Shown piece by piece: positions 10,474 to 39,622 of a DNA stretch of 54,245 bases. A program made the translations under genes and the position numbers. Every line of letters begins with the position of its first letter. Within the stretch, counting starts at the first letter, position 1. The notes beneath the pieces were generated by a model. It saw nothing but the letters and a program-made list of their open reading frames with translations. It made no database searches and had not been told where the DNA came from. The stretch is from a virus (Duplodnaviria > Caudoviricetes): IMG/VR virus record IMGVR_UViG_3300048073_000020, positions 1 through 54,245 of that record; one strand, 5' to 3'.

Positions 10474-10709
10474 GCGAGCCCAACTACAAAGCCGCCTACG
10501 AGCGGTTGCTGCGTTCGATGCAGGGTATTCAAGCCTGCGGCACGCGTTGCCCGTGCTGCGAGATGCTTTCACGCATCGCCGACAACGCCGTCAAAGAGGC
10601 ACCACTGCTGCTCGATGTTCCTGCAGGAACACCGACCGACCCGCCGAGGGTAGGAACGCCCGACCCGATGCTCGAAATTCCACGTTTCTTGCGGTCGGGC
10701 GACGACTAG
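10470..10709 (+). CDS. 79-aa protein with Cys cluster, Pro-rich linker and FtsZ-tail-like C-terminus
   Basis: ATGA overlap with MuF stop; ends MLEIPRFLRSGDD. Confidence 0.6.
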   Translation: MSEPNYKAAYERLLRSMQGIQACGTRCPCCEMLSRIADNAVKEAPLLLDVPAGTPTDPPRVGTPDPMLEIPRFLRSGDD

Positions 10710-36795: not shown

Positions 36796-37211
36796 TACAG
36801 ATTTTCGAACGGGTACAACGCTGCGAACTTGTTCAACTCTTCGAGGGCGGCTTCGGGCGTAGCAAACAACAACGCCTCGCGAACCTTGACGGCGGCGCGT
36901 GAAATATCGTCGTGCTCAAGTTTCAGCCGCTTGACCTCGGCCTCGATCATCGCCGAGCGCTTGGTGTTGTACTCTTGAATCGTTTTCTGCGCGCGAATCA
37001 CTCGGGCCGGCGTTTTGAATTTCTTGTCGATATCCCAACGCTTGCGCGCGGCCCCGCTCTTGATGCTGTCTATGCGGTCTTTGATATATCGCCGCTGCTG
37101 CTGATTGGTCAACGCCTTGCCCGTACATGGCCCCGGCGCAACTTTGTCGTGCGGGGTCTTACAGTTCTTGCAGGGGTCGCCGATGTGACTGCGTGTTTTC
37201 GGTGTGCTCAT
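36795..37211 (-). CDS. hypothetical basic protein with N-terminal Cys/His cluster
   Basis: TAATG coupling to polymerase; CKNCKTPH..C. Confidence 0.65.
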   Translation of the reverse strand: MSTPKTRSHIGDPCKNCKTPHDKVAPGPCTGKALTNQQQRRYIKDRIDSIKSGAARKRWDIDKKFKTPARVIRAQKTIQEYNTKRSAMIEAEVKRLKLEHDDISRAAVKVREALLFATPEAALEELNKFAALYPFENL

Positions 37212-37273
37212 GTTGTCGCCCTTGCGTCTACGCCCCGCGCCGAGGGCGCGCGGGGTTTCGACGGGTCTGTCAG

Positions 37274-37351
37274 TTAGAACGGAATGTCGTCGTCGAGCGG
37301 TGTCGAGTCGTTCAACATCGACACCCTCGGCAATGCGAACCCCGTTACGTT
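37274..37351 (-). CDS. +1-frame SSB C-terminal tail NVTGFALPRVSMLNDSTPLDDDIPF (frameshift extension, or 14-aa micropeptide from ATG 37318)
   Basis: Translated by hand; ends DDDIPF-stop; follows CTT-TAA-C. Confidence 0.6.
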   Translation of the reverse strand, partial: NVTGFALPRVSMLNDSTPLDDDIPF

Positions 37352-38408
37352 AAAGTTTCACCATGTGGCCGGCCTGCAAGAGCTGCGCGTCGGTCCACGA
37401 GTTTTGCCGGAACGCATCGTAGCGCCCGCCATTCTGGTTGACCATACGGAAACCTGCAGGGGCACCGAGCGGGCACACGAACGCAGCCGGGGGCGCTGCT
37501 GCCGCTGCCGGCGGTGGCGGTGTGGGAACGGCAGCCGCGACCGGTGCGCCCGGAACCGGCGGCATAGCACCGCCCGGCGGGGCGATAAAGCCGGGGTGTG
37601 CCTGCACTGGAACGCCAGCCGGCGGCGGTGGGGCCATACCGACGGGGGCGGCAGCCGGTGGCGGTGGTGGCATCGCTGCAGCGCTCGGCGGCGGCGGTGG
37701 CATCGCACCGGGGGCGGGCGGCAGCCCTGCAGCGGCGGGCATGTTCGCCGTGTTGCCGAGCGGCTGCGCGGTGACACCGGCAGGCAGCGCGGAACGACCG
37801 AAGCCCACGGTGCGCGGATCGGGGCCGGCGATGATTTCCTTACCCGGCGCACGGTAAGCGACCATGTTGTGATTGATAAACATGCCCGGCTTCTGCGTGT
37901 TGCCGTTCGTGTTTATCGAGATAAGCACCTCGACCCAATAGCCGCACTTCACGAGCCCCGGCTGCAAGAGCGGGTTGCCCGATTCGTCGAACACCTTGGT
38001 AGCGAAGCCCGACGAACAACGCACGACCCAATGACCGGGGAACCCTTCGCGGTCGCAGTTGCGCCGCATGTTCGCCTCGGGGTTCGGCGTGGCATCATCG
38101 CCGTCGATGATCTTCCAAGAGAATTTGGGGTGCTTGCACGCGCCGTTCGACGGATCGAACCACGCCGGCCAAGCGGCTTGCGCCAGTGCGTACACTTTCG
38201 CGCCCCATTGCGTCTGCCACCAAATTTGCTCGCCGGCCTTCGGGATCGCGACCGAAAAGAAATAGTTCACGCGGTCTTTGCCGGCATTCTCGCCTGACTT
38301 CACCGTCAGTTTATTGCCCTGCATATCTTCCGTTTGCGGCTCGTACAAGTCGCCTTGCACGAGGCGCGCAACGGGTAAAAGAATCTGATTGTCTACGGCT
38401 GCATTCAT
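37350..38408 (-). CDS. putative ssDNA-binding protein (DUF2815-like core) with Pro/Ala-rich linker
   Basis: Between Cas4-like nuclease and polymerase; WKIIDGD, GFPGHWVV, GMFIN; DDDIPF tail downstream. Confidence 0.65.
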   Translation of the reverse strand: MNAAVDNQILLPVARLVQGDLYEPQTEDMQGNKLTVKSGENAGKDRVNYFFSVAIPKAGEQIWWQTQWGAKVYALAQAAWPAWFDPSNGACKHPKFSWKIIDGDDATPNPEANMRRNCDREGFPGHWVVRCSSGFATKVFDESGNPLLQPGLVKCGYWVEVLISINTNGNTQKPGMFINHNMVAYRAPGKEIIAGPDPRTVGFGRSALPAGVTAQPLGNTANMPAAAGLPPAPGAMPPPPPSAAAMPPPPPAAAPVGMAPPPPAGVPVQAHPGFIAPPGGAMPPVPGAPVAAAVPTPPPPAAAAAPPAAFVCPLGAPAGFRMVNQNGGRYDAFRQNSWTDAQLLQAGHMVKL

Positions 38409-39622
38409 TTGGAAAACACCTTGCGTGCGGTTATGGAATTATCCCGTGCGAGCTTCATCGCACCGGGCGGTCTTGAAGCGTAGGCTTTCATGACTTCGGG
38501 GTCAATGCCTAGCTGTATCGCTTGCGTCGGCGTTACAACGAGGTCTTTCCGTTGCAGCACCTTGCGCAAATTGATGCCGATCAAATCGCCGAGCCCGACG
38601 AGTTCGTCAGCGTTAACATTGTCGAAATACGTCAACTTTGCGCCGCCGGCTTCCATGTGCCAATAAGGCACCGGCTGCCCTGCGCGCAGTAACGCCTCGG
38701 CCTGCGCTTCGAGCCCGGTCTTACGAGCTTCGAGTCGCTTCAAGGCTTCGGACAGCACGACGAGTTCGATGCCCACTGCCAGCGGGGGCAGCTCGGCGCG
38801 CTCGGCGGTTTGCGAGTATTCGACCCACTTCATACTAGAGTTTTGAAGGGCGACGCAGACATGCCGCGCTTCGCAGTCCGAGCAGTGCTTGCCGGGGTGC
38901 GCCTTCGGGGCGAACGATTCGCCGAGCGGCATCAACGCTTGGTCGGCTGCGGTGTTCGCATCTATCAGGATGTTTCTAAGCGCGATTGCCTTCGTGCGCC
39001 AGTATCTGACCTGCCCCTCGCGGTGGTAGCAACGCGGCTGCACGAGAATGAGTTCGATATATAGATCGTCGTCAATGTCGAGCAATCCGAGTTTTTCCAT
39101 TACGCCGGCCGCGTAGGATGAAAGCTGCGGGTTCTCGAACACCTCGACGTAGCGGTGCCCGTACTTGTAGTCGCCCACACGCACGAGCTTGATACGGCCC
39201 TCGTTGAAGCGACCCTCGGGCAATCCTGGCGGGCAGACTTGATACGCTTGCCGAGCGTCTTCGAAGTATCGCCAGCCGTCAGGGGTGCCCGCGCATTCGT
39301 CGTTGACGCGCGTAATGGGCATCGTTTCCTCGATATGCATCTCGGGGTCGGGTGCGTTCATCGCGCGGCAATACATCATCGCCCCGGCGTGCATGTCCGC
39401 GTCTACGGTCCATTCCTCGCCCTCGCTGACGAATTTCGCGTTGACGGGCAGCTCGTGGGCGAAGCCGGCAAGGTATCGACGTGCGACCCAATGGGCCGCC
39501 GTGCCCTCGCGTTTCTCGGGTGTCTGCGGTAGTGGCGGCACCGACTCTTGTAACTGCAGGCTTGCGTTACAAGCAATCGTGAGTGCGAGCGATGATGGTC
39601 TAACCCTTACGGGGCTTATCAT
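38405..39622 (-). CDS. Cas4-like PD-(D/E)xK exonuclease (DUF2800-like); start may be 39652
   Basis: REGTAAH, GTPD, GDYKYG, NPQLSSYA, VQPR, PGKHCSDCEAR..C. Confidence 0.8.
   Translation of the reverse strand: MISPVRVRPSSLALTIACNASLQLQESVPPLPQTPEKREGTAAHWVARRYLAGFAHELPVNAKFVSEGEEWTVDADMHAGAMMYCRAMNAPDPEMHIEETMPITRVNDECAGTPDGWRYFEDARQAYQVCPPGLPEGRFNEGRIKLVRVGDYKYGHRYVEVFENPQLSSYAAGVMEKLGLLDIDDDLYIELILVQPRCYHREGQVRYWRTKAIALRNILIDANTAADQALMPLGESFAPKAHPGKHCSDCEARHVCVALQNSSMKWVEYSQTAERAELPPLAVGIELVVLSEALKRLEARKTGLEAQAEALLRAGQPVPYWHMEAGGAKLTYFDNVNADELVGLGDLIGINLRKVLQRKDLVVTPTQAIQLGIDPEVMKAYASRPPGAMKLARDNSITARKVFSK

What the first reader, a model, noticed from the sequence alone, without database searches (positions are those of the whole stretch)
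37274..37365. SSB acidic tail DDDIPF in the +1 frame behind a prfB-like CTT-TAA-C site
Seen: the SSB-like gene ends ATG GTG AAA CTT TAA C; a +1 slip (CUU to UUU) adds 25 aa ending PLDDDIPF-stop. Established: DDDIPF is the bacterial SSB-Ct docking motif, and prfB shifts +1 at CTT-TGA-C helped by an upstream SD. Here GGTGA lies 2 nt upstream. A GAGGG also precedes ATG 37318, allowing a free 14-aa peptide MLNDSTPLDDDIPF. Inference: either two SSB isoforms tuned by release-factor activity, or a micropeptide decoy for host SSB-interacting proteins; both could modulate repair or defence sensing.
Basis: partly seen in the sequence, partly recalled or inferred. Interest (0 to 1): 0.85.

Follow-up and report, generated by a model that had tools for sequence, protein, structure and literature searches.

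The report
Phage SSB tail added by frameshift
A group of uncultured phages seems to make two versions of its single-stranded-DNA-binding protein: the longer one gains a bacterial-style docking tail only when the ribosome slips forward one base at the stop codon, as in bacterial release factor 2.

Summary
It lies on the minus strand. A phage Gp2.5/Enc34-type SSB gene (38408..37350) ends ATG GTG AAA CTT TAA C. Only the +1 frame is open from there, and it adds 25 residues ending DDDIPF-stop.

It is not an assembly error. Twelve distinct homologous loci, none over 90% identical in the last 126 nt, all keep GTG-NNN-CTT followed by a stop (TGA 7, TAG 2, TAA 3). All have a +1-frame tail of 17-32 residues ending DDDIPF, DDPIPF, DDEIPF, EDDIPF or DADIPY. 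Fifty-five of 120 listed database homologues stop at the same x-M-V-K/R-L.

CTT makes up 7.6% of the other Leu codons in these genes, yet it is 12 of 12 at this position. Tail differences fall mainly on +1-frame third codon positions (45 of 73). Two lineages have no start codon in the tail.

Best reading, at about 85%: a conserved prfB-like programmed +1 ribosomal frameshift gives a tail-less and a tail-bearing SSB isoform. A free micropeptide is not supported. Control by release-factor level is untested. My literature searches found no report of this case. No expression data exist.

The parts
37350..38408 (-). SSB gene, frame-0 ORF of 352 aa including its TAA stop (the short isoform)
   Evidence: ORF list. 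phrog_7011 'Gp2.5-like ssDNA binding protein' E 5.6e-60. PF10991 Enc34_ssDNA-bd at 20.2 bits, below the 26-bit cut-off.
37839..38408 (-). N-terminal OB-fold ssDNA-binding domain (about aa 1-190)
   Evidence: AlphaFold2 model with pLDDT mostly above 90. Foldseek matches Enc34 SSB 5odl at E 2.5e-10 and T7 gp2.5 1je5 at E 1e-6.
37479..37838 (-). Pro/Ala-rich linker predicted to be disordered (about aa 191-310)
   Evidence: pLDDT mostly below 60. Sequence.
37353..37478 (-). Conserved C-terminal mini-domain (aa 311-352, beta-alpha-alpha-beta) ending GHMVKL
   Evidence: pLDDT 93-97. Invariant and nearly invariant columns G315 to L352. Gapless alignment in 12 loci.
37359..37362 (-). SD-like GGTG (GGTGA with 37358), 3 nt upstream of CTT; candidate 5' frameshift stimulator
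   Evidence: ATG GTG is 12 of 12 at the nucleotide level, while GTG is 45.7% of other Val codons in these genes. A 3-nt spacing for +1 stimulators is stated in PMC5009743 (passage).
37352..37355 (-). Shift site CTT_T: P-site Leu codon CTT plus the T that is skipped
   Evidence: CTT is 12 of 12 here against 11 of 145 other Leu codons in the same genes. The frame overlap limits the shift to AAA-CTT-TAA.
37350..37352 (-). Frame-0 stop TAA, followed by C
   Evidence: The homologues have TGA 7, TAG 2, TAA 3, and the next base is C 7, G 5.
37277..37351 (-). +1-frame tail of 25 codons, NVTGFALPRVSMLNDSTPLDDDIPF (present only in the long isoform)
   Evidence: Homologous tails of 17-32 codons occur in 12 of 12 loci. 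Substitutions concentrate on third positions.
37277..37294 (-). Terminal hexapeptide DDDIPF, identical to the bacterial SSB-Ct tip
   Evidence: DDDIPF is named as the SSB-Ct motif in the abstract of PMC5872125 (listing).
37274..37276 (-). Stop codon TAA of the +1-frame tail
37278..37346 (-). Predicted RNA stem-loop filling the tail ORF, starting 3 nt after the frame-0 stop; role unresolved
   Evidence: MFE -32.9 kcal/mol, z -2.42, 4 of 200 shuffles as good. Tail segments of the 12 loci have mean z -1.97 against +0.17 and +0.10 for upstream coding controls. No compensatory pairs were found.
37233..37255 (-). GC-rich hairpin CCCCGCGC-loop-GCGCGGGG between the tail stop and the next gene (ATG 37211); no T run follows it
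   Evidence: Not reported by the terminator scan.
37316..37328 (-).
   Evidence: Two of 12 tails have no start codon, and the SD is kept only in L081.

Best explanation
The window is a complete, uncultured phage genome. Its replication module encodes a Gp2.5/Enc34-type SSB with three parts: an OB-fold domain, a long disordered linker and a small folded C-terminal domain. Ribosomes reach the last sense codon, CUU, with a stop codon in the A site. Most probably a fraction of them slip peptidyl-tRNA-Leu from CUU to UUU (+1), as in bacterial prfB. The slow-to-decode stop is likely to help the slip, and the invariant GGUG 3 nt upstream may help as well. These ribosomes then translate 25 more codons that end in DDDIPF. 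Two isoforms result. The short SSB ends at the mini-domain, as in most relatives. The long SSB carries an acidic tip identical to the bacterial SSB C-terminal docking motif.

What is shown: the sequence anatomy; its conservation at nucleotide level in 12 diverged loci; the coding signature of the tail in the +1 frame; and in-frame mini-domain-plus-tail fusions in two relatives. What is inferred: that the ribosome, not the RNA polymerase, changes frame; the efficiency of the shift; and the function of the tail. By analogy with T7 gp2.5 and bacterial SSB, I expect the tip to dock the SSB onto a replisome or repair partner, either the phage polymerase or primase or host SSB-binding proteins. The frameshift would then fix the ratio of docking-competent to plain SSB.
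For: 1) Anatomy. The +1 frame opens only 2 codons before the stop and runs to DDDIPF-stop.

2) Conservation. 12 of 12 distinct loci (WIN, L081, L103, L001-L006, L201, L009, L188) have CAY ATG GTG NNN CTT plus a stop plus a +1 tail ending D/E-D-x-I-P-F/Y. Their SSBs are 39-72% identical to the window's where measured (L201 and L188 were not). No pair exceeds 90% nt identity over the last 126 nt.

3) Nucleotide-level constraint. CTT is 12 of 12 here against 11 of 145 (7.6%) other Leu codons. GTG is 12 of 12 against 118 of 258 (45.7%) other Val codons. Invariant Gly, Pro and Ala columns nearby use 3-4 different codons each.

4) The stop identity varies (TGA 7, TAG 2, TAA 3) but its position never does. 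55 of 120 listed homologues end x-M/L-V-K/R/H-L.

5) The tail is coding in the +1 frame from its start. Differences by codon position are 13/15/45. L006 against L201 shows 5 changes, all synonymous, one of them at codon 4 upstream of the tail's only ATG, at codon 17.

6) L084 and L087 carry mini-domain plus DDNIPF or DDIPF in one frame.

7) The site matches what is known for prfB: consensus CTT_TGA_C with an upstream SD (PMC3711429, passage); SD spacing of 3 nt for +1 shifts, and CUU_U the most efficient shift site also with UAG (PMC5009743, passages).

8) Logan's separate assembly of the likely source sample gives the same letters, with 0 differences and 0 gaps across 36800-37900.
Against: There is no direct evidence of translation. 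No RNA run was available and no proteomics. Only contigs could be laid, not raw reads.

The host and its 16S tail are unknown. GGUG is a weak SD. It overlaps the Met-Val codons of a beta-strand in a confidently folded domain, so part of its conservation is protein-level.

prfB uses UGA almost exclusively. Here three different stops are used, so the prfB regulatory logic does not carry over.

The recurrent 3' hairpin shows no compensatory covariation (0 of 27 and 1 of 17 pairs), and its distance from the site varies.

The efficiency could be very low. What the tail binds is untested.
Confidence: 0.85

Rival explanations
1. Assembly or sequencing error: one extra T in CTTT, so the real gene is one continuous ORF.
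For: A single-base indel in a short T run would give exactly this picture in one contig. Raw reads could not be inspected, because only Logan contigs were available.
Against: 12 distinct contigs from different collections share the out-of-frame arrangement with three different stop codons. 55 of 120 listed database proteins end at the same residue. No stored database protein has the tail in frame after HMVxL. Logan's separate assembly has identical letters.
Confidence: 0.01
2. Dead tail: an ancestral in-frame tail was cut off by a real 1-bp insertion and is now a decaying, untranslated remnant.
For: Relatives with an in-frame tail exist (L084, L087). Most of the wider family does without a tail: 0 of 144 newly stored representatives (from the 150 listed) end in an acidic IPF motif.
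Against: A remnant would pick up stops and lose DDDIPF. Here the +1 frame is open and ends in the motif in 12 of 12 diverged loci, and tail lengths differ between 17 and 32 codons. Changes are mostly at third positions. CTT and GTG are frozen at nucleotide level.
Confidence: 0.03
3. Separate small gene: the tail ORF is translated on its own from an internal start as a free acidic peptide, a decoy for SSB-binding proteins.
For: The window has GAGGG-5 nt-ATG at 37318. 9 of 12 tails contain an in-frame ATG.
Against: L003 and L004 have no ATG, GTG or TTG in the tail, and L009 has only a GTG at codon 3. The SD-like GAGGG is kept only in L081. Codons upstream of the ATG stay open and are conserved as protein, e.g. 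EGIVNGRLPG and NV(T/A)GF. The ORF always opens at the shift site. The Met sits in a conserved peptide motif, (S/P)MY(P/A)YDP, present in five tails (L103, L001, L005, L006, L201).
Confidence: 0.04
4. Transcriptional slippage: RNA polymerase drops one U in the UUU run, so the frame change is in the mRNA and not made at the ribosome.
For: It would give the same protein, and no RNA data are available to exclude it.
Against: The run is only three T. From my own knowledge, productive slippage sites are much longer homopolymers. The features that are conserved are those of a ribosomal +1 site: CUU specifically, a stop directly 3', and an SD-like element 3 nt 5'.
Confidence: 0.04

Closest known systems
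prfB (bacterial release factor 2) autoregulatory +1 frameshift, CUU_UGA_C with an SD 3 nt upstream
   Same: The same shift codon CUU followed by U, a stop codon in the A site, and an SD-like purine-rich element exactly 3 nt upstream. C follows the stop in 7 of 12 loci. The functional part of the product is encoded in the +1 frame.
   Different: The site lies at the 3' end of the gene, not near the start. The frame-0 product is a complete, presumably functional SSB rather than a dead peptide. UGA, UAG and UAA are all used. The product is not a release factor, so there is no autoregulatory loop. The SD is GGUG(A), not AGGGGG. A stable hairpin often follows the site.
dnaX tau/gamma (-1 frameshift) and phage tail assembly chaperone G/GT (-1 frameshift)
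   Same: Recoding sets a ratio of two isoforms that share an N-terminal body and differ in a C-terminal interaction module. dnaX is also a replisome component. The general idea is in PMC5009743 and PMC3711429 (passages); the details are recalled.
   Different: Those are -1 shifts on heptanucleotide slippery sites with 3' structures. In dnaX the shift removes the interaction domains; here it adds one.
Listeria phage PSA tail-shaft gene: +1 frameshift at a proline codon next to a stop
   Same: A phage gene in which a +1 slip at the last sense codon before a stop yields a C-terminally extended protein (PMC5009743, figure legend passage).
   Different: That is a structural gene with a CCC-type shift codon. 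The extension is not a docking motif.
T7 gp2.5 / Enc34 ORF6 SSBs (DUF2815, PF10991) with acidic C-terminal tails
   Same: The same OB-fold class (Foldseek). An acidic tail ending in an aromatic residue is said to mediate polymerase and primase-helicase contacts in T7 and ssDNA selectivity in Enc34 (PMC5686142, passages).
   Different: In those proteins the tail is in frame and follows the OB fold directly. Here a roughly 120-aa linker and a folded mini-domain come first, and the tail needs a frame change.
Bacterial SSB C-terminal tip (SSB-Ct, DDDIPF)
   Same: An identical hexapeptide at the extreme C-terminus (abstracts of PMC5872125 and PMC3632105 in the listing).
   Different: It sits on a non-homologous, gp2.5-type SSB. 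Binding partners are unknown.

Membership tests
prfB-type programmed +1 ribosomal frameshift site | Shift-prone CUU codon followed by U (CUU_U) | tested here: met
   CTT_T in 12 of 12 loci. CTT is only 11 of 145 other Leu codons in the same genes.
prfB-type programmed +1 ribosomal frameshift site | Frame-0 stop codon immediately 3' of the shift codon (UGA followed by C in prfB) | tested here: met
   A stop at this position in 12 of 12: TGA 7, TAG 2, TAA 3. The next base is C 7, G 5. This differs from prfB's near-universal UGA.
prfB-type programmed +1 ribosomal frameshift site | Shine-Dalgarno-like stimulator 3 nt upstream of the shift codon | tested here: inconclusive
   GGTG-NNN-CTT in 12 of 12, with GTG frozen against 45.7% usage elsewhere. 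The element is short. It overlaps conserved Met-Val codons of a folded strand. The host's anti-SD is unknown.
prfB-type programmed +1 ribosomal frameshift site | The +1 frame encodes a conserved, functional continuation | tested here: met
   The tail is open and ends D/E-D-x-I-P-F/Y in 12 of 12. Substitutions by codon position are 13/15/45. In-frame equivalents occur in L084 and L087.
prfB-type programmed +1 ribosomal frameshift site | Autoregulation: the product is the factor that reads the stop | tested here: not met
   The product is an SSB. It therefore works like prfB's site but is not a member of the prfB regulatory circuit.
prfB-type programmed +1 ribosomal frameshift site | Measured frameshifting (trans-frame protein) | not testable with these tools
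   No RNA or proteome data, and only contigs could be laid.
T7 gp2.5 / Enc34 ORF6-type SSB (DUF2815) | Sequence membership | tested here: inconclusive
   PF10991 scores 20.2 bits, below the 26-bit cut-off. phrog_7011 'Gp2.5-like ssDNA binding protein' scores E 5.6e-60.
T7 gp2.5 / Enc34 ORF6-type SSB (DUF2815) | gp2.5-type OB fold | tested here: met
   Foldseek on the AlphaFold2 model: 5odl E 2.5e-10, 4jg2 E 1.2e-9, 4klk E 2.4e-8, 1je5 E 1e-6.
T7 gp2.5 / Enc34 ORF6-type SSB (DUF2815) | Acidic C-terminal tail | tested here: inconclusive
   Absent from the frame-0 product and present only in the +1 product. None of the 144 newly stored family representatives (from the 150 listed) ends in an acidic IPF motif.
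T7 gp2.5 / Enc34 ORF6-type SSB (DUF2815) | ssDNA binding | not testable with these tools
   Needs biochemistry.
Bacterial SSB-Ct docking motif | D-D-D-I-P-F at the extreme C-terminus | tested here: met
   for the +1 product. Variants DDPIPF, DDEIPF, EDDIPF and DADIPY occur in relatives.
Bacterial SSB-Ct docking motif | Binds partner proteins through the tip | not tested
   No complex job was sent.

The most novel reading that the evidence does not exclude
This clade gained a host-SSB-mimicking tip by turning the hairpin-bearing 3' untranslated stretch behind the SSB gene into coding sequence that only a prfB-like +1 frameshift can reach. The slip rate depends on how fast the host terminates translation. 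It would then act as a built-in dial coupling the share of docking-competent phage SSB to host physiology. Through that share it would govern recruitment of host SSB-partner proteins, and possibly exposure to SSB-sensing defences. If so, this would be a CUU-stop +1 frameshift used outside prfB, in a replisome protein, to set an isoform ratio; my searches found no other such case.
Probability: 0.25. Interest if true: 0.9.

Novelty: new variant of a known kind. Interest (0 to 1): 0.8.

Why it matters
According to the PRFect paper (passage), every CUU-plus-stop +1 frameshift in the RECODE data belongs to prfB. A second, unrelated gene family that keeps the same site over deep divergence would be informative. 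It would show that the prfB signal is a portable module that phages use to make two protein isoforms, not only an autoregulatory device.

For phage replication, it predicts a tail-less and a tail-bearing SSB in a fixed ratio. The tail is identical to the hub motif through which bacterial SSB organises repair and replication proteins.

In practice, gene callers truncate these proteins. All 55 database entries of this type stop at the frame-0 stop, so the docking tail is invisible in current annotation. Frameshift predictors that leave out CUU-stop motifs will miss it too.

The case is directly testable with a short reporter cassette.

Tried and rejected
- **Single-protein scan of IMG/VR:** it found nothing. 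The alignment-based scans were needed.
- **Cultured phages:** 121 records match, but 0 cover at least 80% of the query. The best is 45% identity over the OB domain only. No isolate with this C-terminus was found in that collection.
- **In-frame fused forms:** I searched with the trans-frame 67-aa reading among longer proteins. It gave 5 hits from 53 candidates, all covering only the mini-domain. This is weak evidence, because the search depends on shared words.
- **Profile search of 1.84 billion representatives:** 1545 relatives were found, of which the best 150 were listed and 144 were newly stored and examined. Of these, 91 end at the mini-domain, 1 ends HMVxL, 2 end in a non-acidic xPF/xPY, and 50 end otherwise. 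None has an acidic IPF end.
- **Reads:** no RNA holder was listed. X1 may be the source sample and is held as contigs only. X2's contigs stop on either side of the site and do not bridge it, so they say nothing about it.
- **Rfam and tRNA scans of the window:** no matches. No 16S in the record, so the host's anti-SD could not be read.
- **3' structure:** hairpins recur, but covariation is absent and the spacing varies. I do not claim a stimulator.
- **Second GGTGNNNCTTTGA in the window (10591-10603, minus strand):** no minus-strand ORF ends there. It is a chance match.
- **Alternative-frame peptides ending CDDCVPF or CDDIPF inside Pro/Ala-rich linkers of the sister clade:** they occur in only two SSB lineages and also in an unrelated gene's linker. 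I take them as most likely a compositional by-product and did not pursue them.
- **Origin of the trait:** the quick OB-domain tree puts HMVxL proteins in two supported groups of 48 and 7, joined through weak nodes. The careful search did not finish. One row, P0053, was left out, and only every sixth representative was included. A single origin is neither shown nor excluded.
- **Complex prediction:** I considered docking the tail on a polymerase. L001's downstream ORFs were listed and no polymerase lies adjacent. No job was sent.
- **Codon-usage script:** it crashed after seven loci and was replaced.
- **L081:** it holds a masked run of N inside the gene, so only its C-terminal part was used.
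- **Supplementary files of papers:** not consulted. Frameshift gene lists in the supplements of PMC3711429 or PMC10885494 could hold SSB cases that I could not see.
Full report
**1. The observation.** The feature lies on the minus strand. The 352-aa ORF 38408..37350 ends CAC ATG GTG AAA CTT TAA C. In the +1 frame a TGA (37360-37358) sits two codons before the stop. After it the frame is open to TAA 37276-37274 and reads NFNVTGFALPRVSMLNDSTPLDDDIPF. The two frames therefore overlap only across AAA-CTT-TAA.

**2. The gene and its setting.** The window is a whole IMG/VR virus record, estimated 100% complete, with no rRNA, tRNA or Rfam match. The protein matches phrog_7011, 'Gp2.5-like ssDNA binding protein', at E 5.6e-60. 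It matches PF10991 (Enc34 SSB) weakly, at 20.2 bits against a 26-bit cut-off.

An AlphaFold2 model built on 55 homologues shows three parts: a confident OB domain (about aa 1-190), a disordered Pro/Ala-rich linker (about 191-310), and a confident 42-aa mini-domain (311-352, beta-alpha-alpha-beta) whose last strand is MVK. Foldseek places the OB domain with Enc34 SSB (5odl, E 2.5e-10), two DUF2815 structures and T7 gp2.5 (1je5, E 1e-6).

The gene lies in a replication module. A DUF2800/PD-(D/E)XK exonuclease is upstream, with an overlapping ATGA junction and an AGGTG 8 nt before the SSB start. A 138-aa unknown, a family-A DNA polymerase and a helicase lie downstream. A second helicase, an endonuclease and a primase lie on the other strand.

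**3. Homologues end at the same place.** Of the 120 best database homologues listed (241 had E <= 0.001), 55 end x-M/L-V-K/R/H-L: HMVRL 33, HMVKL 18, and four single variants. These proteins are 43-100% identical to the window's.

DNA could be fetched for 12 distinct members: the window; nine distinct sequences from ten IMG/VR contigs; one MAG contig (L081); and one metagenome contig (L103). All 12 read CAY ATG GTG NNN CTT followed by a stop. All have a +1-frame tail of 17-32 codons that ends DDDIPF (8), DDPIPF, DDEIPF, EDDIPF or DADIPY, directly followed by a stop. The stop is TGA in 7, TAG in 2 and TAA in 3. The next base is C in 7 and G in 5. No two of the 12 exceed 90% nucleotide identity over the last 126 nt.

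**4. Constraint at nucleotide level.** In the gapless alignment of the last 42 codons, invariant Gly, Pro and Ala columns use 3-4 different codons each, so synonymous sites are well mixed. The last codon is nevertheless CTT in 12 of 12, and the Val at -3 is GTG in 12 of 12. Elsewhere in the same 12 genes CTT is 11 of 145 Leu codons (7.6%), and GTG is 118 of 258 Val codons (45.7%). A cruder count over locus ORFs gave 7-17% and 34-52% before the script stopped. The -2 codon varies freely among Lys and Arg codons. The frozen letters are thus GGTG, a 3-nt spacer, CTT_T and a stop.

**5. The tail is translated in the +1 frame from the shift site.** I compared five related pairs (L006 takes part in three of them). 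Tail differences fall 13, 15 and 45 on +1-frame codon positions 1, 2 and 3. Of the changed codons, 31 are synonymous and 21 are not. L006 and L201 differ at five sites, all synonymous, including codon 4, well upstream of the tail's only ATG, at codon 17. L003 and L004 have no ATG, GTG or TTG in the tail at all. Two more distant relatives, L084 and L087, have the mini-domain and a short DDNIPF or DDIPF tail in one continuous frame. Mini-domain plus tip in one chain is therefore a natural architecture.

**6. Controls and rivals.**
- The DNA motif GGNCAYATGGTGNNNCTTTRR matched 26 IMG/VR loci. Ten are SSB genes, and all ten have the tail. The 16 others have neither a long upstream ORF with SSB features nor an acidic IPF tail.
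- Two relaxed patterns that also required ATH CCN TWY plus a stop downstream returned the same ten SSB contigs. The 53 other loci contain no case of a long ORF plus an acidic tail.
- Logan's separate assembly of the probable source sample reproduces 36800-37900 with no difference.

An assembly error, a decaying remnant and a conserved free micropeptide are each contradicted by these data. Transcriptional slippage cannot be excluded without RNA. It is unlikely on a three-T run, and it would not explain the conserved stop and the GGTG.

**7. RNA structure.** The tail segment (stop to tail stop) folds better than dinucleotide shuffles in most loci. The mean z is -1.97 and the median -2.39. L001 and L188 are the exceptions. 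Two upstream coding controls of equal length give +0.17 and +0.10. In the window the stem-loop spans 37346-37278 and starts 3 nt after the stop.

Alignment folds show no compensatory double changes (0 of 27 and 1 of 17 pairs), and the distance from the site varies. Sister-clade genes that end ...NGLMLA-stop are followed at once by a GGCCC-TTCG-GGGCC hairpin, visible as 'AWPFGAG' in shifting frames. The hairpin may therefore be an inherited post-gene element that the tail ORF now overlaps, a frameshift stimulator, or both. I leave this open.

**8. The wider family.** A profile search of 1.84 billion representatives found 1545 relatives. Of the 144 newly stored representatives examined (from the best 150 listed), 91 end right after the mini-domain, and none has an acidic IPF end. 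The tail is thus a speciality of this group, reached only by the frame change.

A quick tree of the OB domain alone places the 55 HMVxL proteins in two well-supported groups of 48 and 7, joined through weak nodes (the careful search did not finish). One origin is neither shown nor excluded. L009, whose C-terminal residues most resemble members of the group of 7 by eye (not tested), also has the site, with a DADIPY tail.

**9. Mechanism (inferred).** With CUU in the P site and a stop in the A site, peptidyl-tRNA-Leu re-pairs with UUU one base ahead. Decoding then continues with AAC, AGC, GAC or GAG. [quoted passage not shown] It also states that SD-like stimulators of +1 shifts lie 3 nt upstream (passages). 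PMC3711429 gives the prfB consensus as CTT_TGA_C with an upstream SD (passage). GGUG(A) is complementary to the CACC just 5' of the anti-SD core; the 16S sequence here is recalled, not tested. The same AGGTG serves as the likely SD of the SSB start.

**10. Function (inferred).** The short isoform resembles the tail-less majority of the family. The long isoform carries the hexapeptide that the abstracts of PMC5872125 and PMC3632105 (listing) describe as the conserved SSB-Ct interaction motif. The Enc34 paper (passages) reports that acidic tails mediate polymerase and primase-helicase contacts in T7 gp2.5. It also reports that removing the Enc34 tail lets the protein bind dsDNA. I therefore expect the frameshift to set the share of SSB molecules able to dock a partner, either a phage replisome protein or a host SSB-binding protein. 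Because all three stops are used, regulation by one particular release factor is not conserved. Dependence on the general rate of termination remains possible.

**11. Comparison with what is known.** The site works like prfB's but is not part of that circuit: the product is not a release factor, the frame-0 product is complete, and the site is at the gene's end. In purpose it resembles dnaX tau/gamma and the phage G/GT chaperones, where two isoforms differ in a C-terminal module, but those are -1 shifts. Listeria phage PSA's tail-shaft gene also shifts +1 next to a stop, at a proline codon.

The PRFect paper says that all CUU-plus-stop +1 cases in RECODE are prfB (passage). Six full-text searches and term look-ups in PMC3711429, PMC10885494 and the first 300,000 characters of PMC5009743 found no mention of a frameshift in an SSB gene. 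Supplements were closed. A 2026 preprint on DRT4 (passages) shows that DUF2815 SSBs and their C-terminal tails are sensed by a defence system. That makes isoform control of such a tail of wider interest, but it says nothing about frameshifting.

**12. Limits.** Everything here is comparative sequence evidence. No RNA, ribosome-profiling or protein data exist for these uncultured phages, raw reads were not available, and the host is unknown.

Noticed in passing
window 37353-37478 (minus strand; aa 311-352): A confidently predicted 42-aa beta-alpha-alpha-beta mini-domain (core ...GW.D..L...G.M...) ends most proteins of this SSB family, in place of the acidic tail usual for SSBs (91 of 144 representatives). 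No Pfam family covers it. Its partner is unknown.
   Followed up: partly
L010-L080, e.g. L019, L027, L055, L079 (just after the SSB stop): Sister-clade SSB genes ending NGLMLA-stop are followed at once by a GGCCC-TTCG-GGGCC hairpin without a T run. It shows up as the pseudo-peptide 'AWPFGAG' in different frames.
   Followed up: partly
L027, L036, L037, L079, L125, L177 and L010 (inside the SSB linker); L046, L048, L145, L146 and L066 (inside another gene's linker): An alternative frame of Pro/Ala-rich linker DNA reads a Cys-rich peptide ending CDDCVPF, CDDIPF, CDDCIPY or NDECVPF followed by a stop. It is probably a by-product of composition, but the SSB-tip-like ending recurs oddly often.
   Followed up: partly
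L008 5034-6092: In a related phage a separate ORF resembling the N-terminal exonuclease part of the window's DNA polymerase ends DFDYDNEIPF-stop. An IPF-type tip thus also sits on another replisome protein.
   Followed up: no
L084 and L087 (SSB C-termini): Relatives with mini-domain plus tail in one frame...LIAHGLARMTLDDNIPF and ...LIAHGYMRTDDIPF. L084 comes from the same MAG as the frameshifted L081 but from another contig.
   Followed up: partly
window 37233-37255 (minus strand): A strong GC hairpin (8 bp, loop of 7) lies between the tail stop and the next gene's ATG at 37211. No T run follows, and the terminator scan does not call it.
   Followed up: no
window 38405-38424 (minus strand): The SSB start overlaps the stop of the upstream exonuclease gene (ATGA). 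An AGGTG lies 8 nt before it, so a GGTG-type SD is apparently used for initiation in this phage.
   Followed up: no
window 38378-38381 (minus strand, SSB codon 10): A second in-frame CTT followed by T (ATT CTT TTA), with no stop next to it. For this reason the four-letter code was applied only to the last 67 codons.
   Followed up: no
window 10591-10603 (minus strand): The only other GGTGNNNCTTTRR in the window. It lies on the non-coding strand of plus-strand genes and at the end of no ORF, so it is a chance match.
   Followed up: yes
L081: The closest relative with DNA (72% identity, binned in a Pseudobdellovibrionaceae MAG) holds a masked run of N inside the SSB gene. Its two halves therefore appear in different frames. 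This is not a real frameshift.
   Followed up: yes
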